59,014 nt of DNA from Amoebophrya sp. A120 (taxonomy: Eukaryota; Protista; Dinoflagellata): contig CAJINV010000004.1 in assembly GCA_905178155.1 (NCBI GenBank), positions 1,458,467 through 1,517,480 of the forward strand. Direction: 5' to 3'. How positions within the stretch are numbered: the stretch's first letter is position 1; each line of letters begins with the position of its first letter. This document shows positions 25,731 to 57,846 of this stretch, one piece after another. A program made the position numbers and the translations under genes. Below the pieces are notes generated by a model that searched no databases, was not told where the DNA came from, and worked only from the letters and a program-made list of their open reading frames with translations.

Positions 25731-26844
25731 AAACTCTCAACCACGAGCGTTGTGAGGGCGACTGCCGGGGAGGGGAGACGAAACCCGAGACGCGGCAGGA
25801 TGCTTCGACAGGCGTACAGTTTTACTTTTATCACAGAAGAAGTAGTAAGTACGATATTGACTTCTTCGACTGCCAGGGAGTCGTATCGACATGCAAGGAG
25901 CGAATTTCTGTTTTTGCAGCCATGTTGAAGTTGACACACTACATGATGGTGAAGCCAAGGACTTTGGTGGAAACACAACAAGGAGTGAACCTCTACAATC
26001 AGTCATGAATGATTCCGATTTCGAACTTTCATTTGTTTTTTTGCGCGAGCAAATTGATTGCCTGCTTCCCCCCGGAAGATCCTCGTCCAACCAAAAGTAG
26101 TGCAACCGTTTTTTAGCAACGAACTGTGCGTCGTCTCCAGCTGCTGAGCTTGTGGTGAGGTGTTGAAGCTGTGTTTACTCAAAACCAGCTACACCCACAA
26201 GAAGTGACGAGAAAATGATCTTCGAGGCAGCGACAAAAACTATTACTCAGTCATCGATCTCCTTCCTTGGCACGACTCATACATCACAACTACGTGAGCA
26301 TCAAAAATAAACTGTCGTGACAACTGGCTTTCTGCTCGTCCGTCGATGGCGTATTCGTGCAGAAATGATACTTGAACAGATTCCGTGTAGTGTGTACAAC
26401 ACCTCTGCTCGCTCCTCGTCGCACTTCGACGTTCACCAAAATCGTTTCGTAAACAACGGATTTAACAAAGTGATCGTACTGGAGCTGTCATTTCGTTCGG
26501 ACCCATCGTCGCACAACTCCGGGCAAGATTTTGACCACGTCGTTTCGATTCTAGAACCGAAGGTCATTGATGAAAGTGGTCGTCTCCGTATATGGATTGT
26601 CATACCTTACCGAAGCCAAATCATTTCATTTTTCATCCATTAATTCCATGTCAACGACAGGAATTTTCGTTTTTTTCCCCGGGGAAATAAACCAAACACC
26701 ACGTCGTCGACCTCTGTGCCTCGGTGTACAGTGTAGTTCGAAGAAAAAGCTCAAAACTAGAAACAACCTAATTAGACCAAGCAAGCCTTGTTCGCTGCTT
26801 TGTTGTACTCTGGAGGAATAAACGAGGACAAAAAACCCAAAATC

Positions 26845-29800
26845 ATGAAGAAGTTTGCGAAGATCGGAGCGGCCGGTTCTGGCCTGCTGCCGCTGGCGGG
26901 CGAGCAAATGTTTGCGGCGGCGGTCCAGAAAGCCGGGAAGGCGACCCACGAATGGGCTGGGAGCGAGTCCTCGGCCAAGGGGTTCATGGAAGTGGATCGC
27001 GTGCGCGTGGATTCGTCCAAGGGCAAGATATGGAGGTGGAATATCACTTTCACTTTCTGCGCCAAGAACATGAATCGTTGCATCGGAGAAGATGATATGT
27101 ACTGAAGCATATTAAGTTTAACTTTATTTCTGCAAGGAATGGTAGATGTTAATCACTTTCGAGAGTGCCACTGAGAGTGCGTACTGAGAGTGCGTACTGA
27201 GTACTGATAGTTGAGAGCGCTAGCCTCCAGGCGCCTTCCGTTGGAGTTAAGATGTTTCTCCTGATCGCAACTTTTTGATTGCGGCTTACCTACACCCTGC
27301 GACCTGACTGCGGCACTTCCGACGTTCCGGCTGCCTCGAGCGCTACGGCGCGTCGAGGATGGCCGTTGACAGCGACGTCACGATGCAGGAGAGCGCAATG
27401 GCAAATGCAACGGCGTCGTCCTCCACCACGTTCCCGGCGTTCGGTGGTGCGGACGAAAACAACAGCTACACCGGCAGGAAACAAGTCTACAGTGCTACGC
27501 TCGACAGCAGTGATGTGGAGCCTGCTGGTCTGAACTGCCTCCTCCCTGGCGGATATGTACTGGGGCAGATCTTGAATCTCGGGCGGGACCCCAAGACGAA
27601 AGCAGTGACCAACGGTTTTTTCTGGGTGCAGCCCCTCCGCGCGACGAGAATCGGGGAGTGGAGATCGGAGCGGACCGAACGGGGCTGGTTCAAGGGCATC
27701 TACTCGACAATCGGCAGCGTTAAGTACGGACAGCGACCGAGCGAACTGCAGCCGGGCGCCCATGTGAAGTTTGTTATCGACACGTACAAGCGGAGGAACC
27801 CGCTCACCGGGGAGCAGCACTGGTCCTGGATTGCGCGTGACGTCCAACTCGTAACGGAAACCGGTCAGCCGCTCACCTTTGCAGAACCGACGCCCGCGCC
27901 GTGGCGTAACGCCCAGGCTTTGCAGGAGGGCGGTACGTTTCCTGCTTTAGGCGCCAACCCCGGCCGCGACAACATGCTTACGCGGGACGAGGTCCGGGTG
28001 CTCATCGACGAAGCATTGGCGGCCCGCGACGAGGAATTCGAACAGATGAAGGCCAAGGTCGAGGACCAGGGGGCGAAGATCGACGCGGCGACCTCCGGCA
28101 TCGAAGCGGCGCGGGACCACTTCTCGACCTTACAGGGACAATGTGATACGGAGTTTGCCACGCTGCGCGAGGACATGCTCACCACGCGCGAGGAATTGCA
28201 GAGGAGGGTCGGGGCTTGTGAGAACCACATCGAGGGGTTCAAGGTCGAAGTTAACGCCCAGCTCCAGGCCATGATGCAGTCGATACAGACAGGGATGAGT
28301 CAGGTAATAAATGTTTGTAACGCACTCCGCAATCCATCGCTCGAGCCGGCGAGGCCTCCGCCTACGAATGTGGAGGTGGTCACCGAGCAGAAGAGCCAGA
28401 ATAACGAGGTGGCCAATCACGACATCGTGCTCGATCCATCTCTAGTTCGAGTTGCGGGTCGCAAAGCCTACAAGACCTCACTCTCCTCGACCGGAAGCAC
28501 GTACGCAGCAAATATGACGAACACCTATGGCAATGGCGCTAAGTACTTCCCTATCCATGCGCATCACGATCTTCATGACTCCTCTAAAATCACAGATATC
28601 GCTGTTCGGGAAGAAAGGCGCTACGCTGGGCATGAAGGGAGCGGTGGGCGGACCGGTGGGAGCCCAGGCCTCGGCAGCGACGGCAGCCCCGCCACAACTC
28701 GTAGTACCGCCGCAGGAACCGAGGCCGGGAAGCGAGCAAGCAGCGGATCTGGACACCGGTCCCCCCGCTTCAAAGCGGCAGCGGGACGACGGTGTGGACA
28801 AGAACACGGAGGATTCGCGCGCGAAGCGGACGGTGCCGGTGCTGGGATCGGGAGCGGCGGCTGCCGCAGCATCGATGGCTGCTGGCGCTACGGCGACGGC
28901 GTCCCGCTAGGCGGAGTTGTGGTCGACTTTCTCATTGTTCTCTTCTGCCTCATTACTTGGAGCTGGGTCACCACCTTTCACCTTCTCGCGCCCTTGATCC
29001 AGCTGCTCACCCTGCCCTCCGTTTATGATTTCGCTCGACATCTTTTTTATCACCGGAAATTGCTCTACAACGTTCTCAGCGACATCTACAGTTTTGGAAC
29101 CGAAGCAGTCAAAATTTGTGCAAGATCTTCTACATGCACATCTCCAGTAGTTTTCTCACGAGCAGTATTTTTTCAACCCGGCATTACCGACCCAGATCGG
29201 AGATCTCGCAACTGCATCCCGAAGGGAGTTGTATTTTTTCAGCACGGCGCGGAGACAAAGGGCTCCAGCACCTGCGCAGACGGATTTGCGGGCTTTCTCT
29301 TACGCACCGGGGCCGCTTGCTGCATTGTGGCGGCGCTTGAATTGAAGATAAAGATGAGCTACTTTGTTGGAATCGCGAACACATCACTGAAGCACTGTGG
29401 CCGTTTTTTGACGAATGTTTGGAAGAAATGCAGCACTCTGTTTCGCTCGTCTCTCGGAAAAGCAAAGAAGAAGTGCCTACGGAAGAATAAGTTGTTTGAA
29501 ATTCGCCGCGCAAATAGAAGTTCCTGTGTTCGACATGCTGTGAAGGTCGTCGTCGGTCTTGCGAGTGAGGGGATAGCAATGCAGCCGTCCAGCAGTGGCG
29601 GTGGCTTTCGGGTCTCGAAGTACAGCTTGCGGCTTACGAGTGGGCGCGCTTCCCGTCCAGCCGACTACGCAGCGGAGATACGGCCCTCCTACGCGGAAAC
29701 TGTTCTTGCTAGCCGCCAAGCACGACAAGCAAGGAAAGCCGCAGCAGGCTCGGCAGCAGATGCGGACGCGGGGACTGAGGCGAGGGCGGGCCCTACCCCG

Positions 29801-32800
29801 CAGGACAACAAGAAGAAGGTGAACAGCGGGAAGACCTGTGACTACTCCCGTTTTGCGCACAAGCCTTGTGCCGACTACAACGTATTCAATGTGGGGCAGG
29901 CGGGCGACTGCGACAGCATAGAAATCACGACGCAAAATGTGCGGGAGGCGGTGATAGGGGTCGACGCTCGTGACCGCATTCTGCAAAACGCCCCGGAGCG
30001 GTTCGGGGTCATCGCCCTCTCGGAGACACGGTGGGGCAAGTCGGGGTGCGGGCTTGTCGGTGTCAAGCGCCTAAACGGGGAGATCATGCGGGAAGTCGGA
30101 GCAGCAAATGATGGCGCAGATTCCTGCCCCGACCACCCCCCGCCCTGTTTCGCTGCGACGAAGGACTACGTGACGCGGGGGCGGGGATACATTGCCTGCC
30201 TTGGACCGGGCGCAGGCATTGCAGTCCGCGGTGGGCCGGTGCTCGATGAGCTCACCAGGTTGACCGACGAAGACCTCGCAGAAAAATTCGAAGTACGGGA
30301 GCGAACTTGCACGGGGTTTTTCCGCAACTTCACGCTGTTCAGCGCCTACGCACCCGCTAATGCTGACCCCGCTGACGTTTCAGCCTACCTGCGGGACCTT
30401 GGCAGGTACGTACGCCGTACGCTGCGGCGGAAGGGCCGCCGCGACCTTCCGTTCTTCATCGCGGGGGACCTGAACTGCCATGTTGGGGCCGAGGTTTCCG
30501 GGTTTGCGGTCGGGGAGCACGCATGTACGACGAAGGCCACAAGCCCCAAGGGGCACGCGCTGCTGCGGTTCTTGTCCAAGAACAACCTCCGCCTCGTTGA
30601 TTCGTTCTTCGAGATTGGCGACAACGGCGACGACCGCTTTACCTTTTTTCGGGGGGAGCAGCGATCCGAGGTTGACGGCTTCATCACGGCTGGCCGCTTC
30701 TTGGGGCGGGTCCAGAAGATTGAGCGGTGCGAAGTTCTACGCGACGAGACTACGCTACGGGAAGATGGCACAACAGCGCTGGACCACTACGGGAAGACCA
30801 TCACGCTCGCGGTTCCCCGGGTTGACGTAGAGCACGGGGCGACGGGGCAAACACGGAAAGGGCAGAAATGGGTCGGGGTTGTCCCGATCACGCCGGAGAT
30901 ACGGACCTTCTTCTCCGACCAGGTGCTGTCCACCCTGCGTTCCCAGACCGCTGCCAGCCAGTCCCCCGCCGACGGTAGTGAGGAAGCACCCACTGATCCT
31001 GACGGCGATGCGCCTTCGGGCCTGCAAAAGTTTCTGGAGGCGATGTCGGAGTCAGAGGCAGTTTTGATGGAAACTGGGCAGGAGCGGGCTCTCCGCATTC
31101 GGGCCGACAAGAAAGAGCAGAAGCGCATCCGCGAAGAATGCGCCCCTGCTGCTGCAGCTGCTCCAGCGGGCTGCCCATCGAAGCTCCGGGCGCTTTGGGC
31201 GCACATCGGAGGGTGCAAGAAGCAGCGGGGTCCGTCGACTGCGCCGGGCGGCTGGGCGGATTTCTACCTCACGCAGGTCGTCGCGAAGGCACATCCGCAC
31301 TGCAGTTTCGACGCCACAGAGTATGTTGACCCGCTTCCGCCGAGCTGTGTGCAAGACCTTGATCGGCCAATCGACCTCGCCGAGTGGCGGAAGGCGCTGA
31401 AGGAGGTGCGGCCGGGGAACGACTCCCAATCCTGGTCGAAGCAGGTCTTCGACGCGCTGGACGACACTTGCACGCAGATCTTTTTAGACGAACTGAACTG
31501 CGAGCTTGCGGCCGGGTGGGGCCTCCAACGCGTCGATCGCAAGTACCGGCGGGCCAGGATCACGCTACAACACAAATCGGGAGACAGGACTAAACTCACG
31601 AATTATCGTGGGATATCGGCGGTTCCGACGGTGACAAAAGTGCTCGCGCACTGCCTCACGAAGCGGCTTCAGGCCGTCATCGTCAAGCACGGCCTGATAG
31701 ATCCCGAAAATTTCGGGTTTGTTCCCGGGAGAAACGCAAGCGACGCCCTGGTGCTCTTCCGGCGCATGCTTGAGGATGCTCGCGACTTCCAGAGTCATGA
31801 ACAGTATGCGGTCCCCTGGGGGCTGTTTCTTGATTTAAGGAAGGCATTCCCATCATTGAGCTGGGAATGTGTCACGTCGGTCAGCGATCGGCTCGGGATT
31901 TCGCAAACACGCACCTGGGCAGGGTTGTCGGCCTGCCACCGCGACGTATGGTGCCAGGAAGCGCGCGAGCAGGAAGATTTTATTCTTCCGATTGGACTCC
32001 AAGAGGGTTGTCCGTCAAGTCCTTGCATGTTTACACTCACGTATGCAGTGGTATCCGAATCGATGCGGCGCGCGCGGGCAGTAATTCCACCGGAGCAGAA
32101 GAACCTCGACAATGCGGGCCTTTTGTTGCGCTACCCCACGGACAGTTCCTACGCGGCAACAGAAAAGGAGAAGCTGGAGAATTTGCTGAGGGCGTCGCAG
32201 GCGAGCAAGCGGGGCGAGAGACGGGTCGGCAGCGGGAAGTTCGCCGACGACACCAACCTGGTTGGCGAATCGTTAGGAGGGCAGCCCAATGCGGACGTGA
32301 TCCAGGCCACACTGGATGTTTTGGCATCTGCGCAGATGGAGGAGAACCTCTCGAAACGTGAGATGGGGCCGCTGGCGGAGCAGATCTGCAAGTTTCTCGG
32401 AGTGTACTTGTGCGACTCCCGTGACATGCAGCAACGGATCAACAGGGGGTGGCGGGCGTACTACGGCGCGCAGCGCTTACTGGTCGGGTTCGGCAGGTTG
32501 TCCGCGAAGCAGCGCCGCGCGATTCTCGTATCGCTCGTTCGGGGGACAATGTTGTACGGCGCAAACGGCAGGAACTTTTCTTCGAGTGAGCTCGCAACGC
32601 TGCAAAAAGAGGAGAGTGCGATACTGCGCCGCGTCTTCAACACGTGCCGGCCGCAGATGGAGGCCGAAAATTTGTCCCACCACACGCTCCGCCGCCACTT
32701 GGAGCTTGCGCCGATCTCTGCCGAGATTGCGTTTGCACGTCTTGCACACGGTGGCCACCTGCTACGGCGGGACCCCTCGTTTTTACCCCGACAGGCCTTC

Positions 32801-34433
32801 CTGGGCAGGTTCGTCATCAGTAGCGCCAACCCCGACATCACCCCGGACGCGAACCCCGAGCATTTCTTGCTACCCCGTCGGCCATCTCGCCTGCCCTCCG
32901 TGTATGAGGCGTTTGTGGATGCGTGTGCGGACGCGCGCATAGCTACGAGCGACTTTGGGGAATTTTCGCAGCCGGACTCGCGCCGGATTTGGTACGTCTC
33001 GACACGCTCGTGGTACATCGACGCAACAATGCGGCACTGGTTCTACCCGACTTGGCGCACTGCTAGAGCCGCAAAGCCGGAAGTAGAGTGCGCTTTCGCA
33101 AATCTGTTGAAGCGCTTCGACGTGTCCCAGCAGGAGTACGAGCGGTACTACGAGCATCGCCCGCCGGTCAACAACAGGCGCGCCGCGGGTCAGCCGACGC
33201 GAAGCGTCCAGCGACTTCGGGCGAAACAGGTGGAGCTCAGCACTGACACAACGGCGCGACAGGAGGAGAAGATTATTGCGGACTCGGGCGGGATATACGG
33301 GCCTGCCCCTGGTGAGGGCGGGGTGTTGCGATGCAGAGCCTGCGACGTGAACCTTGGTGGGAGCCTCCGAGCACTGCGGGCGCACTTGAACTTGCACAAA
33401 GCGGATGACTTCGCGCGTCTCGTGTCGGAGCCAGGAGATTACTGCGTTCCGGTCGAAGAATTTTTGCATGGTAAGTCCGGCAATTGTATTATACCACCGA
33501 AGTACACGAATAAGATGAAGCACGTTCTTCCACCGGAACGCTTCCTGCCTGACAACGAGGCGAGCAAGTTCAAGGTGACGCGGATCCGATGCCCGGTATG
33601 CGCCAGCCACGAGGTCCCGTGGCCACGGAAGTACCAGCGAAAAATCGGGGCGAAGACGAGGATGCTGAACCACGAAAAGCAGTGCAAGAAGAAAAGGGCG
33701 CTGCAACTCGACAAAGAAACAGATCGAGATGCTGCTGACGCTGCTAGCTCTTCTGGAAGCGAAAACGAAGATGAACTGGCCGACGGAGTTGAGGACGAAG
33801 AATGATCGCGAAATGAGCACGAGGAAAATAAGTTTTTGATCGTAGACGGATTCGCAAGTCGTAGCATGTCGTGCTGTGCCCTGACTAAGACATGCTCTAA
33901 ACGTTGAACTTGAACCAGGTCCCAACCCATTGCACGCTCCCCCCCCAGTGCAGTTAGATGATGATGATGATGATGATTTCCAGCAACTTGTATGGCCGTA
34001 TGTCCATGTCGTACTGACGGCTGATCTAGATCTAGTAGCTTTTCGGCTAAAGCTGAGCAAATGCATCTGCAATATGCGAAATTCTTTCAGTTTTGCACCA
34101 CTGCGCTGTGCGACAGCAAGCTGTTTAGCAGTTTGGCGTGGAGTTTGAAGACAGTTTCGATTTTGATAAAGCAAGAAGGAGAAGTCGGAGGGGCACGCGA
34201 AGGCGGAGCGCAAGACGGGACAGGGGGAAAAGAAGGCGACGGAGGAGAAGAAGAAAGCGAGCGAGGCAAAGGCGAAAAGTGCGTCCTCTGGTCGTGTCGC
34301 CGCGGCCCAAGATGGCACCGGAGGTGGACCGAATCCTGACAAGGATGTCGGCACCGAGGAGGCTTCTCTGGGTGGTTACGAATCTTCGCACACCCAAGAC
34401 CAGCATGCCCAACCGAAGCAAGCTCTAGCATGA
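26845..34433 (+). CDS. Small hypothetical protein (possible signal-like N-terminus, Lys/Glu-rich), exons about 26845-27028 and 34174-34433, intron carrying the LINE
   Basis: MKKFAKIGAAGSGLLPLAG...DSSKGK|KKEKSEGHAK...QALA* joins in frame across a TAT...ATA intron with degenerate TIRs (27029-34168). Confidence 0.6.
27161..33977 (+). mobile_element. Full-length non-LTR retrotransposon (APE-type LINE)
   Basis: 5' tandem GAGAGTGCGTACT repeats, intact ORF, 3' (GAT)7 tail, possible short TTC/TTTC TSD. Confidence 0.85.
27359..33805 (+). CDS. LINE polyprotein: ORF1-like (OB/cold-shock-like fold, coiled coil), APE endonuclease, reverse transcriptase, C-terminal zinc fingers
   Basis: APE: TQNVR, LSETRW, SAYAP, AGDLN, SEVD, LDH. 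RT: NYRGIS, NFGF, FLDLRKAF, GLQEGCPSSP, KFADD, KFLGV. ZnF: CRAC-x12-HLNLH, CPVC...H...C. Confidence 0.93.
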   Translation: MAVDSDVTMQESAMANATASSSTTFPAFGGADENNSYTGRKQVYSATLDSSDVEPAGLNCLLPGGYVLGQILNLGRDPKTKAVTNGFFWVQPLRATRIGEWRSERTERGWFKGIYSTIGSVKYGQRPSELQPGAHVKFVIDTYKRRNPLTGEQHWSWIARDVQLVTETGQPLTFAEPTPAPWRNAQALQEGGTFPALGANPGRDNMLTRDEVRVLIDEALAARDEEFEQMKAKVEDQGAKIDAATSGIEAARDHFSTLQGQCDTEFATLREDMLTTREELQRRVGACENHIEGFKVEVNAQLQAMMQSIQTGMSQVINVCNALRNPSLEPARPPPTNVEVVTEQKSQNNEVANHDIVLDPSLVRVAGRKAYKTSLSSTGSTYAANMTNTYGNGAKYFPIHAHHDLHDSSKITDIAVREERRYAGHEGSGGRTGGSPGLGSDGSPATTRSTAAGTEAGKRASSGSGHRSPRFKAAAGRRCGQEHGGFAREADGAGAGIGSGGCRSIDGCWRYGDGVPLGGVVVDFLIVLFCLITWSWVTTFHLLAPLIQLLTLPSVYDFARHLFYHRKLLYNVLSDIYSFGTEAVKICARSSTCTSPVVFSRAVFFQPGITDPDRRSRNCIPKGVVFFQHGAETKGSSTCADGFAGFLLRTGAACCIVAALELKIKMSYFVGIANTSLKHCGRFLTNVWKKCSTLFRSSLGKAKKKCLRKNKLFEIRRANRSSCVRHAVKVVVGLASEGIAMQPSSSGGGFRVSKYSLRLTSGRASRPADYAAEIRPSYAETVLASRQARQARKAAAGSAADADAGTEARAGPTPQDNKKKVNSGKTCDYSRFAHKPCADYNVFNVGQAGDCDSIEITTQNVREAVIGVDARDRILQNAPERFGVIALSETRWGKSGCGLVGVKRLNGEIMREVGAANDGADSCPDHPPPCFAATKDYVTRGRGYIACLGPGAGIAVRGGPVLDELTRLTDEDLAEKFEVRERTCTGFFRNFTLFSAYAPANADPADVSAYLRDLGRYVRRTLRRKGRRDLPFFIAGDLNCHVGAEVSGFAVGEHACTTKATSPKGHALLRFLSKNNLRLVDSFFEIGDNGDDRFTFFRGEQRSEVDGFITAGRFLGRVQKIERCEVLRDETTLREDGTTALDHYGKTITLAVPRVDVEHGATGQTRKGQKWVGVVPITPEIRTFFSDQVLSTLRSQTAASQSPADGSEEAPTDPDGDAPSGLQKFLEAMSESEAVLMETGQERALRIRADKKEQKRIREECAPAAAAAPAGCPSKLRALWAHIGGCKKQRGPSTAPGGWADFYLTQVVAKAHPHCSFDATEYVDPLPPSCVQDLDRPIDLAEWRKALKEVRPGNDSQSWSKQVFDALDDTCTQIFLDELNCELAAGWGLQRVDRKYRRARITLQHKSGDRTKLTNYRGISAVPTVTKVLAHCLTKRLQAVIVKHGLIDPENFGFVPGRNASDALVLFRRMLEDARDFQSHEQYAVPWGLFLDLRKAFPSLSWECVTSVSDRLGISQTRTWAGLSACHRDVWCQEAREQEDFILPIGLQEGCPSSPCMFTLTYAVVSESMRRARAVIPPEQKNLDNAGLLLRYPTDSSYAATEKEKLENLLRASQASKRGERRVGSGKFADDTNLVGESLGGQPNADVIQATLDVLASAQMEENLSKREMGPLAEQICKFLGVYLCDSRDMQQRINRGWRAYYGAQRLLVGFGRLSAKQRRAILVSLVRGTMLYGANGRNFSSSELATLQKEESAILRRVFNTCRPQMEAENLSHHTLRRHLELAPISAEIAFARLAHGGHLLRRDPSFLPRQAFLGRFVISSANPDITPDANPEHFLLPRRPSRLPSVYEAFVDACADARIATSDFGEFSQPDSRRIWYVSTRSWYIDATMRHWFYPTWRTARAAKPEVECAFANLLKRFDVSQQEYERYYEHRPPVNNRRAAGQPTRSVQRLRAKQVELSTDTTARQEEKIIADSGGIYGPAPGEGGVLRCRACDVNLGGSLRALRAHLNLHKADDFARLVSEPGDYCVPVEEFLHGKSGNCIIPPKYTNKMKHVLPPERFLPDNEASKFKVTRIRCPVCASHEVPWPRKYQRKIGAKTRMLNHEKQCKKKRALQLDKETDRDAADAASSSGSENEDELADGVEDEE

Positions 34434-56086: not shown

Positions 56087-56240
56087 TATGGATTGCAAAT
56101 ATGTCTGGGTCTGGAAACTTGTAATGCTAAAAGTGAATGATAGACGCACTGCAATACGCAGCTATGCATGACAAATTTTTTGGCTGCCATGTGTTCCGTA
56201 TTCCGCATGGTAAACTGCGTTTTTGCATGACAGGAGAAGG
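56087..56240. mobile_element. Left half of a family A introner, interrupted
   Basis: Left TIR plus body similar to 20912-21150; no right TIR in the window. Confidence 0.8.
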
Positions 56241-56250
56241 ATTCGCAGGA

Positions 56251-57846
56251 ATGTCCGACGCGGACATCGACGACCTGGAGGACAGACAGGACGCGGACAC
56301 CGCGCTGATAACGGCCGCAACGGACGGGGCGGCGACGAGGCTACCGCCGTCGAGCGACTTGAGAGTAGAGGGCTTTGTTCCAGATCGAAGCGACCAAGGC
56401 TCCCAGCCGTCGCAGAGAGCCGACGATCGCACAAGTGTCTACTTGTGGACGACCACTGACGGCGCGGGACTAGTCTGTACGGCGCGGATGAAAAACACGG
56501 CAACTGAAATCCGACTACCCCTCCAGTGTAGAACGAAGAGCGCGCACCTGAAGACCGAGGTAAGGAAGAAAGAGCAGAGATTCCTTGCGTATGCGAACAA
56601 CGTAATATGGGCAATGCCGATCCTGGCGGCAAATCTTGCAGGACCGACACCACGCGACACCCTCGTCTTTCACCTACAGAGCTACCAGGTACTTCTTCAG
56701 GCGACACGAGGCCCGATGAGACAGAAGCAAGGAATCCACCTAGACTTGGTCGAGAAGATCGAGGACCTGCAAGGACTCGGACATCGGGTCGTCAAAGGTG
56801 GAAGCAGCGAAGCAAGGACGCTCGACACGAAGTGCCAATGCTCAGAAATCAACCTGCAGTACATAAACGTCGCCGGACACGACAAAGCGGCCGAGTGGTT
56901 TCATTTCGATTTTGGGGACGATGCGCTACCGGGAATCCCCCCCGTGGTAGAGTGGCCACCGATGTCGATGAAAGAGCGGGCAGAATTTCTGACGAAAGCG
57001 TTAGAAAACGTTGGAGCGCGAACACGAGCAGAAGAGGCACCCCCGAGAGACGAGGAGGCCGAAAGAGGCGCGCAGGCAACGCAGGGACAAGAGACCGAGG
57101 CGGTGGGATCCCCACCGACACCGCGCCAGCTGTTCAACACACCCAAAAACGGAAACAGCGGGCAGGAAGAGAGAACAAGCCAAGGCGGCAAGCGGAACCC
57201 AAGCGGAAGCAGGCAGCCGAGCGGAGAAGCAGGTGCGCAACAGACGCACGGAGGCGCCGCGAAGGAGAGCGAAAACTCCCCAGGAGCAAAAAGGGCAGGC
57301 GCGGAAGAGCAGGTCGGCGAGAAACCAAAGGACGACAAAGACGGAAAGCTGCCGGACGAGCCCAGACGAGAGGCAGACGAAGAGGCCCAGCGGTGTAATT
57401 CGGAAAGGAAAAACACAAAAGCTGAAAACACGAACGCAGAACCAGTCTGGAAGCCACAGAGGAACGAGGCAGCGGGCGACGATGAAGAGCCGGAAGCTAG
57501 AGGCAGGAAACGACGAGAGTCGTCACCGATCTGGAAACCACCAGCGAAAAAGCGAAAGCCGGCCCATCTGTCGCAGTTCTCCAGCGTCACGGACCTGTTC
57601 GGACCCCTAGGCGCGGAACTTAGGGACAACATGTTCGGCAGCTCAGCCAGCTCCTCGCGGCCAGCGCAGCCACAACAACAGAACCCCCCCACGACAAAGC
57701 CCCCCCATGCCGAGAAACTTGGCAAAAACCCCCCCCGCACCGACCCCCACTCAGCAGACGTGCGACGACCAGCCGCTCACAGTGCGCGGACACCAGCCAG
57801 GAAGTCACGGGGATCGGAGGAGAAACAAAAAACACCACAGGACTAA
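56251..57846 (+). CDS. Intron-free orphan ORF (about 531 aa), probably part of a nested mobile element
   Basis: Long open frame, purine-rich, disordered C-terminal half, no introners; no recognised domain. Confidence 0.5.
   Translation: MSDADIDDLEDRQDADTALITAATDGAATRLPPSSDLRVEGFVPDRSDQGSQPSQRADDRTSVYLWTTTDGAGLVCTARMKNTATEIRLPLQCRTKSAHLKTEVRKKEQRFLAYANNVIWAMPILAANLAGPTPRDTLVFHLQSYQVLLQATRGPMRQKQGIHLDLVEKIEDLQGLGHRVVKGGSSEARTLDTKCQCSEINLQYINVAGHDKAAEWFHFDFGDDALPGIPPVVEWPPMSMKERAEFLTKALENVGARTRAEEAPPRDEEAERGAQATQGQETEAVGSPPTPRQLFNTPKNGNSGQEERTSQGGKRNPSGSRQPSGEAGAQQTHGGAAKESENSPGAKRAGAEEQVGEKPKDDKDGKLPDEPRREADEEAQRCNSERKNTKAENTNAEPVWKPQRNEAAGDDEEPEARGRKRRESSPIWKPPAKKRKPAHLSQFSSVTDLFGPLGAELRDNMFGSSASSSRPAQPQQQNPPTTKPPHAEKLGKNPPRTDPHSADVRRPAAHSARTPARKSRGSEEKQKTPQD

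What the first reader, a model, noticed from the sequence alone, without database searches (positions are those of the whole stretch)
28304..28910. LINE may switch between ORF1 and the ORF1-APE-RT polyprotein using a GT-AG intron
Seen: donor CAG|GTAATA at 28304 and acceptor TCACAG| at 28595 (292 nt, both at codon boundaries). Splicing joins ...QTGMSQ to ISLFGKKGATLG... in the overlapping +1 frame, which reads like natural protein and stops at 28910 (about 419 aa). Unspliced RNA stays open for 2148 aa. Known: copia-type LTR elements make Gag from a spliced RNA. Inference: the same logic in a non-LTR element, where RT cis-preference would copy only the unspliced RNA and so preserve the intron. 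I do not know of this being described for LINEs.
Basis: partly seen in the sequence, partly recalled or inferred. Interest (0 to 1): 0.8.

Follow-up and report, generated by a model that had tools for sequence, protein, structure and literature searches.

The report
LINE splices intron to switch proteins
A LINE-type jumping gene, likely from a parasitic marine dinoflagellate, appears in transcript data both with and without a 292-base intron, which would let it make a short, probably RNA-coating protein from the spliced message and one long copying enzyme from the unspliced message, a trick known from copia-type elements.

Summary
The unspliced frame 27359-33805 is 2148 aa; removing 28304-28595 (292 nt, GT-AG) gives 315+104 = 419 aa. 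The exact junction stands in contigs of 2 of 3 RNA-like runs of one sample, beside intron-retaining contigs, and in 0 of 2 DNA-like runs. The donor is the only AGGTAA in the ORF. Exon 2 is the one segment whose codon score favours +1 over frame 0 (0 of 41 control windows do). Frame 0 stays open through intron, exon 2 and a UTR-like spacer (joint chance about 7e-7). Against: the open +1 frame is unremarkable in itself; the element lies sense inside a host intron, so its RNA may be host read-through; splice-site conservation in a second copy could not be read; no protein data. Best reading (0.6): a BARE1/EVD-like splice switch giving ORF1p from spliced RNA and the ORF1-APE-RT polyprotein plus template from unspliced RNA. 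Nine literature searches showed no LINE doing this. The host is Amoebophrya-like (inferred). New variant of a known kind.

The parts
27160..33977 (+). Full-length non-LTR retrotransposon (LINE); 5' end approximate
   Evidence: 5' tandem 9-13 nt repeats at 27160-27220; (GAT)7 tail 33957-33977; no internal repeat in self-BLAST, so no LTRs; no TSD of 6 nt or more at the ends
27359..33805 (+). Unspliced single ORF, 2148 aa (ORF1 part, linker, APE, RT, Cys/His C-terminus)
   Evidence: Pfam RVT_1 E 1.6e-12; 51% identical over 1367 aa to Amoebophrya sp. A120 protein P0002
27359..28303 (+). ORF1 exon 1, 315 aa: beta-rich N-terminal domain of unresolved fold and a long helix (aa 209-314, likely coiled coil) ending at the donor
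   Evidence: AlphaFold2 single-sequence model, helix pLDDT 70-90; differences to other copies mostly synonymous, 20 of 29 changed codons
28304..28595 (+). Facultative GT-AG intron, 292 nt, open in frame 0 (97 codons)
   Evidence: joint in X4 and X5, retained form in X2, X4 and X5, no joint in X1 or X3; frame 0 open in 413 of 20000 shuffles
28596..28910 (+). Exon 2: dual-frame region, 104 aa + TAG in +1 (spliced product), also open in frame 0
   Evidence: codon log-likelihood frame 0 minus +1 is -0.22 against +0.40 +/- 0.15 in 41 control windows; 28634-28733 aligns to the second copy
28911..29578 (+). Spacer: 49% GC, weak codon bias, stop-free in frame 0 with hydrophobic stretches; would be 3' UTR of the spliced RNA and linker of the polyprotein
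   Evidence: open in 8 of 20000 dinucleotide shuffles; hydropathy peaks at aa 514, 537 and 642
29579..29581 (+). In-frame ATG that could start a separate ORF2 (rival reading)
   Evidence: the annotated start of P0002 aligns 16 residues downstream
29966..30791 (+). APE-type endonuclease (approximate limits)
   Evidence: motifs at aa 886, 1036 and 1141 (motif names recalled); Pfam Exo_endo_phos only E 0.041, below its cut-off
31580..32404 (+). Reverse transcriptase domain, non-LTR type
   Evidence: Pfam RVT_1; the 6 solved relatives found are 5 LINE-1 ORF2p-type chains (E 3e-8 to 1e-7) and R2
27028..34172 (+). Host non-canonical intron, 7145 nt, that contains the whole LINE in sense; host exons 26845-27027 and 34173-34433
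   Evidence: joint 27027->34173 in X2 (69.3) and X4 (28.3), not X1; matching loose ends in X4, X5, X6; exons in frame
27099..34090 (+). Likely inner GT-AG intron nested in the host intron (twintron-like), also enclosing the LINE
   Evidence: X5 loose end after 27098 matches 34091 onward in 29 of 30 letters; X4 and X5 contigs start at 27069, as a branch there would cause

Best explanation
This intact LINE has one 2148-codon frame and a 292-nt GT-AG intron that is removed in part of its RNA, and it likely uses that intron as a switch: spliced RNA would shift frame and stop after 419 aa to give free ORF1 protein, while unspliced RNA would give the ORF1-APE-RT polyprotein and likely serve as the template for copying. 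Shown: the ORF, the splice junction, both RNA forms in one sample, no spliced DNA copy in two DNA-like runs, selection on frame 0 in exon 1 and RT. Inferred: translation of both products, an RNA-binding role for the 419-aa protein, cis-preference of RT for the unspliced RNA as what preserves the intron, and any early polyadenylation of the spliced RNA. A possible history (inference): a two-ORF LINE whose ORF1 ended in today's +1 frame gained a 3n+1 intron, and stops were then purged so that unspliced RNA reads through exon 2 and the old spacer into ORF2.
For: Exact predicted junction in X4 and X5, retained intron in X2, X4 and X5, none in X1 or X3. In X5 the junction contig (4.3) and the retained contig (6.2) have similar depth, so splicing is unlikely to be a trace event (contig depth is only a rough guide). 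Unique AGGTAA donor right after the 106-residue helix; acceptor tied first of 158 for upstream A+T. Codon score favours frame 0 in 41 of 41 held-out windows and in intron and spacer, but +1 in exon 2. Frame 0 is open in intron, exon 2 and spacer with shuffle chances 0.021, 0.091 and 0.0004, product 7e-7 if independent. A second genomic copy matches exon 1 to 16 nt past the donor, a 31-nt island in the intron and 100 nt of exon 2, and does not align from 28734 to 29300, as extra constraint on a dual-coded exon would give. Same layout as BARE1 and EVD.
Against: All junction evidence is from one biological sample, 2 of its 3 runs, as assembled contigs at depth 4-7; the runs are only guessed to be RNA by the tool. 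An X2 contig runs from the host exon into the LINE (26999-27601), so the RNA may be host pre-mRNA. The open +1 frame is expected by chance about half the time. The synonymous-usage score in exon 2 is best in +2 (0.224 against 0.161 for +1 and 0.038 for frame 0), and the 100 nt shared with the second copy do not prefer +1. Exon 2 is low-complexity and GC-rich, which can bias codon scores. The second copy carries a 4-nt insertion and a stop in exon 1, its acceptor region did not align, and its donor letters were not displayed. No full ORF1 relative was found; the N-terminal fold is unresolved.
Confidence: 0.6

Rival explanations
1. Incidental splicing. The LINE lies in sense inside a host intron, host transcripts read through it, and the spliceosome uses a good but functionless GT-AG pair, as with cryptic L1 splicing. 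Only the single long ORF matters to the element.
For: Host-exon-to-LINE contigs at depth 4-8, like the LINE body. The +1 frame being open is not significant. L1 has functional splice sites whose use harms retrotransposition (PMC5860796, passages). No conservation of the acceptor shown.
Against: The sites are the best in the element and sit exactly after the helix. Codon score flips to +1 only in exon 2. In X6 the host exon has depth 107.8 while almost none of 27029-29300 is covered, so LINE RNA is not a fixed share of host RNA (contigs show presence, not absence).
Confidence: 0.2
2. Ordinary two-ORF LINE with an intron in ORF1. The spliced RNA is the working bicistronic message: ORF1 (419 aa), a 668-nt spacer, and ORF2 from ATG 29579 by reinitiation or internal entry. 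The long fused frame is a by-product or only shields unspliced RNA from decay.
For: In-frame ATG at 29579 just ahead of the part that aligns to P0002, whose annotated start lies 16 residues further on. The spacer has UTR-like composition and weak codon bias. Reinitiation is how L1 and SART1 reach ORF2 (PMC5972666, passages).
Against: The spacer is stop-free in frame 0 (8 of 20000 shuffles). If spliced RNA made RT, spliced copies should arise; none is seen in X1 or X3, and the second copy keeps intron sequence, though that is only 2 copies. The L1 spacer is 63 nt, against 668 here.
Confidence: 0.15
3. Artefact or DNA variant. The joint is a template switch in one library or comes from a deleted DNA copy.
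For: One sample only; X4 and X5 may share a library; X2 lacks the joint; 3 letters fit on both sides.
Against: The joint falls on GT-AG at the sites predicted beforehand. DNA-like runs carry one unbranched contig across the region. The same runs remove two other introns that X1 and X3 retain (the host intron and the P0006 intron).
Confidence: 0.05

Closest known systems
BARE1 (barley Ty1/copia) Gag splicing (PMC3735527; abstract and section 11 read)
   Same: One ORF; a short GT-AG intron at the end of the structural domain; splicing shifts the frame and gives a structural-protein-only RNA; donor CAG/GTA; the intron is more AT-rich than its exons; both forms coexist.
   Different: BARE1 is an LTR element with particles and a protease; its intron is 104 nt and the stop comes 3 aa after Gag. 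Here a non-LTR element, a 292-nt intron and a 104-aa dual-coded tail; no protease was found for the polyprotein.
EVD/Ty1-copia shGAG RNA in Arabidopsis and Drosophila copia (PMC5580714; passages read)
   Same: Splicing-induced frameshift and stop set the structural-to-enzyme ratio; full-length RNA keeps the intron.
   Different: In EVD the splice is coupled to early polyadenylation and the protein output was measured; neither could be tested here. Drosophila copia removes the whole pol region.
Human L1 splicing and SpIREs (PMC5860796; passages read)
   Same: A LINE with working splice donor and acceptor; cis-preference of its proteins.
   Different: L1 is bicistronic; its splices delete promoter or ORF1 sequence and are dead ends. 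Here the splice completes a short ORF1 while the unspliced RNA is one fused frame.
Intron-retaining Penelope-like elements (PMC8557442; passages read)
   Same: Retroelements that keep an intron through retrotransposition.
   Different: Different order (GIY-YIG, telomerase-like RT); the characterised introns lie in the 5' UTR and are not described as a switch between a structural protein and a polyprotein.
SART1/L1 termination-reinitiation and StopGo (2A) in trypanosome and sea-urchin non-LTR elements (PMC5972666; passages read)
   Same: Ways for a non-LTR element to get two proteins from one RNA.
   Different: Those act during translation; this one acts by splicing.

Membership tests
APE-type non-LTR retrotransposon (LINE) | Non-LTR-type reverse transcriptase | tested here: met
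   Pfam RVT_1 E 1.6e-12; 6 of 6 solved-structure hits are L1 ORF2p-type or R2 proteins
APE-type non-LTR retrotransposon (LINE) | APE endonuclease upstream of RT | tested here: inconclusive
   Motifs in the expected order, also in P0002 (motif identity recalled); Pfam Exo_endo_phos E 0.041, below cut-off
APE-type non-LTR retrotransposon (LINE) | No LTRs; 3' simple-repeat tail | tested here: met
   (GAT)7 at 33957-33977; self-BLAST gives only the full self-hit
APE-type non-LTR retrotransposon (LINE) | Target-site duplication | tested here: inconclusive
   None of 6 nt or more at the element ends; a 4-nt candidate by eye only
APE-type non-LTR retrotransposon (LINE) | Dispersed copies under purifying selection | tested here: met
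   Other copies in X1 and X3; 20 of 29 and 21 of 29 changed codons synonymous against 23-29% expected; only the 40 displayed rows of each lay were scored
APE-type non-LTR retrotransposon (LINE) | ORF1 nucleic-acid-binding protein (coiled coil plus RRM, CCHC or other) | tested here: inconclusive
   Long helix predicted; no Pfam hit under 0.05; Atlas gives a weak cold-shock-domain lead (0.86, 15% of members); fold searches best E 0.18 and Z 5.4
RTE clade | RT phylogeny groups with RTE elements | not tested
   Resemblance of endonuclease and post-RT motifs is recalled, from no call; no named references were on hand
Ty1/copia splice-switch system (BARE1, EVD) | LTR element with gag-pol | tested here: not met
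   Non-LTR RT, no LTRs; so not a member, only works like it
Ty1/copia splice-switch system (BARE1, EVD) | Single ORF when unspliced; GT-AG intron after the structural domain; splice gives frameshift and stop | tested here: met
Ty1/copia splice-switch system (BARE1, EVD) | Spliced and unspliced RNA coexist; spliced form absent from DNA | tested here: met
   2 of 3 RNA-like runs of one sample, 0 of 2 DNA-like runs
Ty1/copia splice-switch system (BARE1, EVD) | Splice sites conserved across the family | tested here: inconclusive
   Second copy aligns across the donor region with the letters not displayed; acceptor region not aligned at 80%; no DNA for P0002; metagenome scans gave one uninformative locus
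Ty1/copia splice-switch system (BARE1, EVD) | Structural protein made from the spliced RNA; splicing coupled to early polyadenylation | not testable with these tools
   Only contigs cover the element; the one raw-read run laid (X8) had 0 reads
Amoebophrya introner (non-canonical intron) | Terminal inverted repeats, non-GT-AG ends, repeated in the genome | tested here: not met
   GT-AG ends; no inverted repeat pairing the intron ends; no second copy in the window; definition from PMC7789003 section 10

The most novel reading that the evidence does not exclude
A LINE lineage has independently evolved the copia splice switch: one facultative intron, coded through in frame 0 and followed by a dual-coded exon, sets the ratio of ORF1 protein to RT polyprotein and separates message from template, with RT cis-preference keeping a spliceosomal intron in an element that copies itself through RNA.
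Probability: 0.55. Interest if true: 0.85.

Novelty: new variant of a known kind. Interest (0 to 1): 0.72.

Why it matters
LINEs need far more ORF1 protein than RT (established knowledge, recalled) and are known to arrange this during translation. A splice switch would be a further solution, convergent with copia elements. It would show that a coding-region spliceosomal intron can persist in a target-primed retroelement, and it makes cis-preference testable from genomes alone: spliced copies should be missing. It also warns that single-ORF LINE annotations may hide a spliced ORF1. The splice junction, predicted from sequence, is now seen in transcript-like data.

Tried and rejected
No whole genome is held, so other copies could be seen only through laid contigs. 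No listed holder is on record as RNA. X6 barely covers the element. Protein searches with ORF1 exon 1 found no full relative: 0 hits, and only the 79-aa P0006. The unspliced protein is not in the collection as an exact sequence. Metagenome scans: 0 of 137 and 1 of 122 candidates confirmed; that locus (L001, 32% identity) shows no comparable long frame and was dropped. A cold-shock/OB fold for ORF1, guessed by eye, was not established; a second Atlas query did not complete. The open +1 frame was rejected as evidence by itself. An introner origin for the 292-nt intron was rejected for lack of terminal inverted repeats. No TSD of 6 nt or more. The spliced 419-aa product was not searched or folded as one piece, so relatives with that C-terminus remain untested except through exon 1 and a Pfam scan of exon 2 (no hit). 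Literature: 9 full-text searches listed no LINE with this switch; the library lacks most subscription papers and Repbase reports, and the supplements of PMC7789003 (TE survey, Fig. S4) were not read.

Full report
Observation. ATG 27359 opens a 2148-codon frame to 33805. The intron 28304-28595 is 292 nt, starts GTAATA after codon 315 and ends TCACAG. Joining puts exon 2 in the +1 frame for 104 codons to TAG at 28910: 419 aa in all.

What the element is. The long frame holds an RT domain (Pfam RVT_1, E 1.6e-12) whose 6 solved relatives are L1 ORF2p-type and R2 proteins, with APE-like motifs upstream (Pfam only E 0.041). It ends in (GAT)7, begins with short tandem repeats and has no LTRs. Its nearest protein is P0002 of Amoebophrya sp. 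A120, 51% identical over 1367 aa. The window is full of roughly 270-nt repeats with inverted ends, like the introners described for Amoebophrya (PMC7789003, passages and section 10). The host is therefore inferred to be Amoebophrya-like. Differences to other genomic copies are mostly synonymous in frame 0: 20 of 29 changed codons in exon 1 and 21 of 29 in the RT and 3' part, against 23-29% expected (p 5e-6 or less; only the 40 displayed rows of each lay were available, and rows outside the ORF or from the P0006 locus were left out of these two counts).

Is the intron spliced? Ten runs were listed and seven laid. The tool only guesses that X2, X4, X5 and X6 are RNA. Two internal controls support the guess. 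First, a host intron 27028-34172 is removed in X2 and X4 (joint, depth 69 and 28) and in X5 and X6 (loose ends), while X1 and X3 read straight on. Second, at another locus that shares 27530-27681, X1 and X3 continue into a GT intron while X2, X4 and X5 continue into sequence that translates to the C-terminus of the annotated protein P0006. In these data the joint 28300->28593, GT..AG when cut 3 places on, is in X4 (6.44) and X5 (4.3). Intron-retaining contigs are in X2 (7.7), X4 (5.1) and X5 (6.2). X1 and X3 show one unbranched 2475-nt contig over the region, so no spliced DNA copy with these flanks is seen. Limits: X2, X4 and X5 are one sample, X2 lacks the joint, X6 and X8 do not cover it, and contig depth cannot give a splice ratio.

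Are both outputs under selection? Frame 0 stays open through the intron (413 of 20000 dinucleotide shuffles), exon 2 (1814 of 20000) and the 668-nt spacer (8 of 20000); the product is 7e-7 if independent. The fused frame is thus very unlikely to be chance. For the +1 product the open frame says little (9491 of 20000 synonymous re-codings). A codon model trained on exon 1 and APE-RT, with stops ignored, prefers frame 0 over +1 in 41 of 41 held-out windows (mean +0.40, SD 0.15, minimum +0.10), in intron and spacer, and in three other long stop-free +1 runs, but prefers +1 in exon 2 (-0.22). A purely synonymous score is less clear: 2 of 41 windows are negative and +2 scores best in exon 2. The donor is the only AGGTAA in the ORF; the acceptor ties first of 158 YAG sites for upstream A+T. 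The donor falls at the end of a predicted 106-residue helix. A second copy in X3 (2485-nt contig against 2475) aligns over 28115-28319, a 31-nt island at 28446-28476 and 28634-28733, then not again up to 29300. It keeps intron sequence, and part of exon 2 is better kept than the spacer. But it has a 4-nt insertion and a stop in exon 1, its donor letters were among 22 rows not displayed, and its acceptor region did not align.

The whole LINE lies in sense inside the 7145-nt non-canonical intron of a small host gene, and probably inside a nested GT-AG intron 27099-34090 (X5 loose end, 29 of 30 letters). An X2 contig runs from host exon 1 into the LINE. So some or all LINE RNA may be host pre-mRNA, in which an 86-codon upstream frame precedes ORF1. 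Against a fixed read-through share, X6 has the host exon at depth 107.8 and almost no LINE cover up to 29300, though contigs show presence, not absence.

Mechanism. Most likely (0.6) a splice switch. Spliced RNA would give a 419-aa ORF1 protein: beta-rich domain, coiled coil, Ala/Gly/Pro-rich tail. Unspliced RNA would give the 2148-aa polyprotein and be the template; since only it makes RT, cis-preference as in L1 (PMC5860796, passages) would keep the intron in new copies. Splicing and both RNA forms are shown; translation, ORF1 function and cis-preference are inferred. Rivals: incidental splicing of read-through RNA (0.2); a bicistronic spliced message with ORF2 from ATG 29579 (0.15); artefact (0.05). 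The N-terminal fold is unresolved: model pLDDT 63, best Foldseek E 0.18, best Z 5.4, weak cold-shock lead at 0.86.

Comparison. BARE1 has a 104-nt GT-AG intron at the end of gag whose removal shifts the frame and stops translation (PMC3735527, abstract and section 11); EVD does the same with coupled early termination (PMC5580714, passages). This element works like them but is not an LTR element. Known LINE solutions are reinitiation and StopGo (PMC5972666, passages); known L1 splicing is a dead end; Penelope-like elements keep introns in 5' UTRs (PMC8557442, passages). An Arabidopsis atlas reports many isoforms for one LINE, with no such switch in the passages seen (PMC13547354). TART splice sites appeared only as a search listing (PMC1636488). 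Nine searches listed no LINE with this switch; subscription papers, Repbase notes and the supplements of PMC7789003 were not seen. Earlier AI notes from this scan mention similar ideas in other genomes without RNA evidence; they are leads, not support.

Verdict. A real, RNA-supported facultative intron in an intact LINE, arranged like the copia Gag switch. New variant of a known kind; interest 0.72.

Noticed in passing
window 26845-34433: Small host gene whose 7145-nt non-canonical intron (27028-34172) appears to hold a nested GT-AG intron (27099-34090): a twintron-like arrangement that removes the whole LINE, with a possible intermediate seen in X5.
   Followed up: partly
Possibly a captured or domesticated ORF1 fragment.
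   Followed up: partly
window 1-56127: Family of roughly 270-nt elements with inverted ends; 23 copies of each end motif listed, introner-like.
   Followed up: no
window 28898-29340: The frame-0 linker has strongly hydrophobic stretches (19-residue mean hydropathy 2.5 at aa 514, 1.4 at 537, 1.8 at 642) that could anchor or help process the polyprotein; untested.
   Followed up: no
window 33851-33975: Other loci share the LINE 3' end (loose ends before 33851 and 33913; bin depth 123 in X2), suggesting 5'-truncated copies or a SINE-like partner.
   Followed up: no
window 32234-33142: X1 holds a contig that skips 907 nt with 3 letters between, likely an internally deleted genomic copy.
   Followed up: no
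window 26837-26874: A 38-nt stretch at the host gene start is shared with another locus (loose ends on both sides in X1, X2 and X4).
   Followed up: no
window 32870-34375 (-) and 56137-57846 (+): Stop-free frames of 501 and 569 codons without Pfam hits; the first is antisense to the LINE 3' part, the second overlaps a region of extreme AT skew.
   Followed up: no
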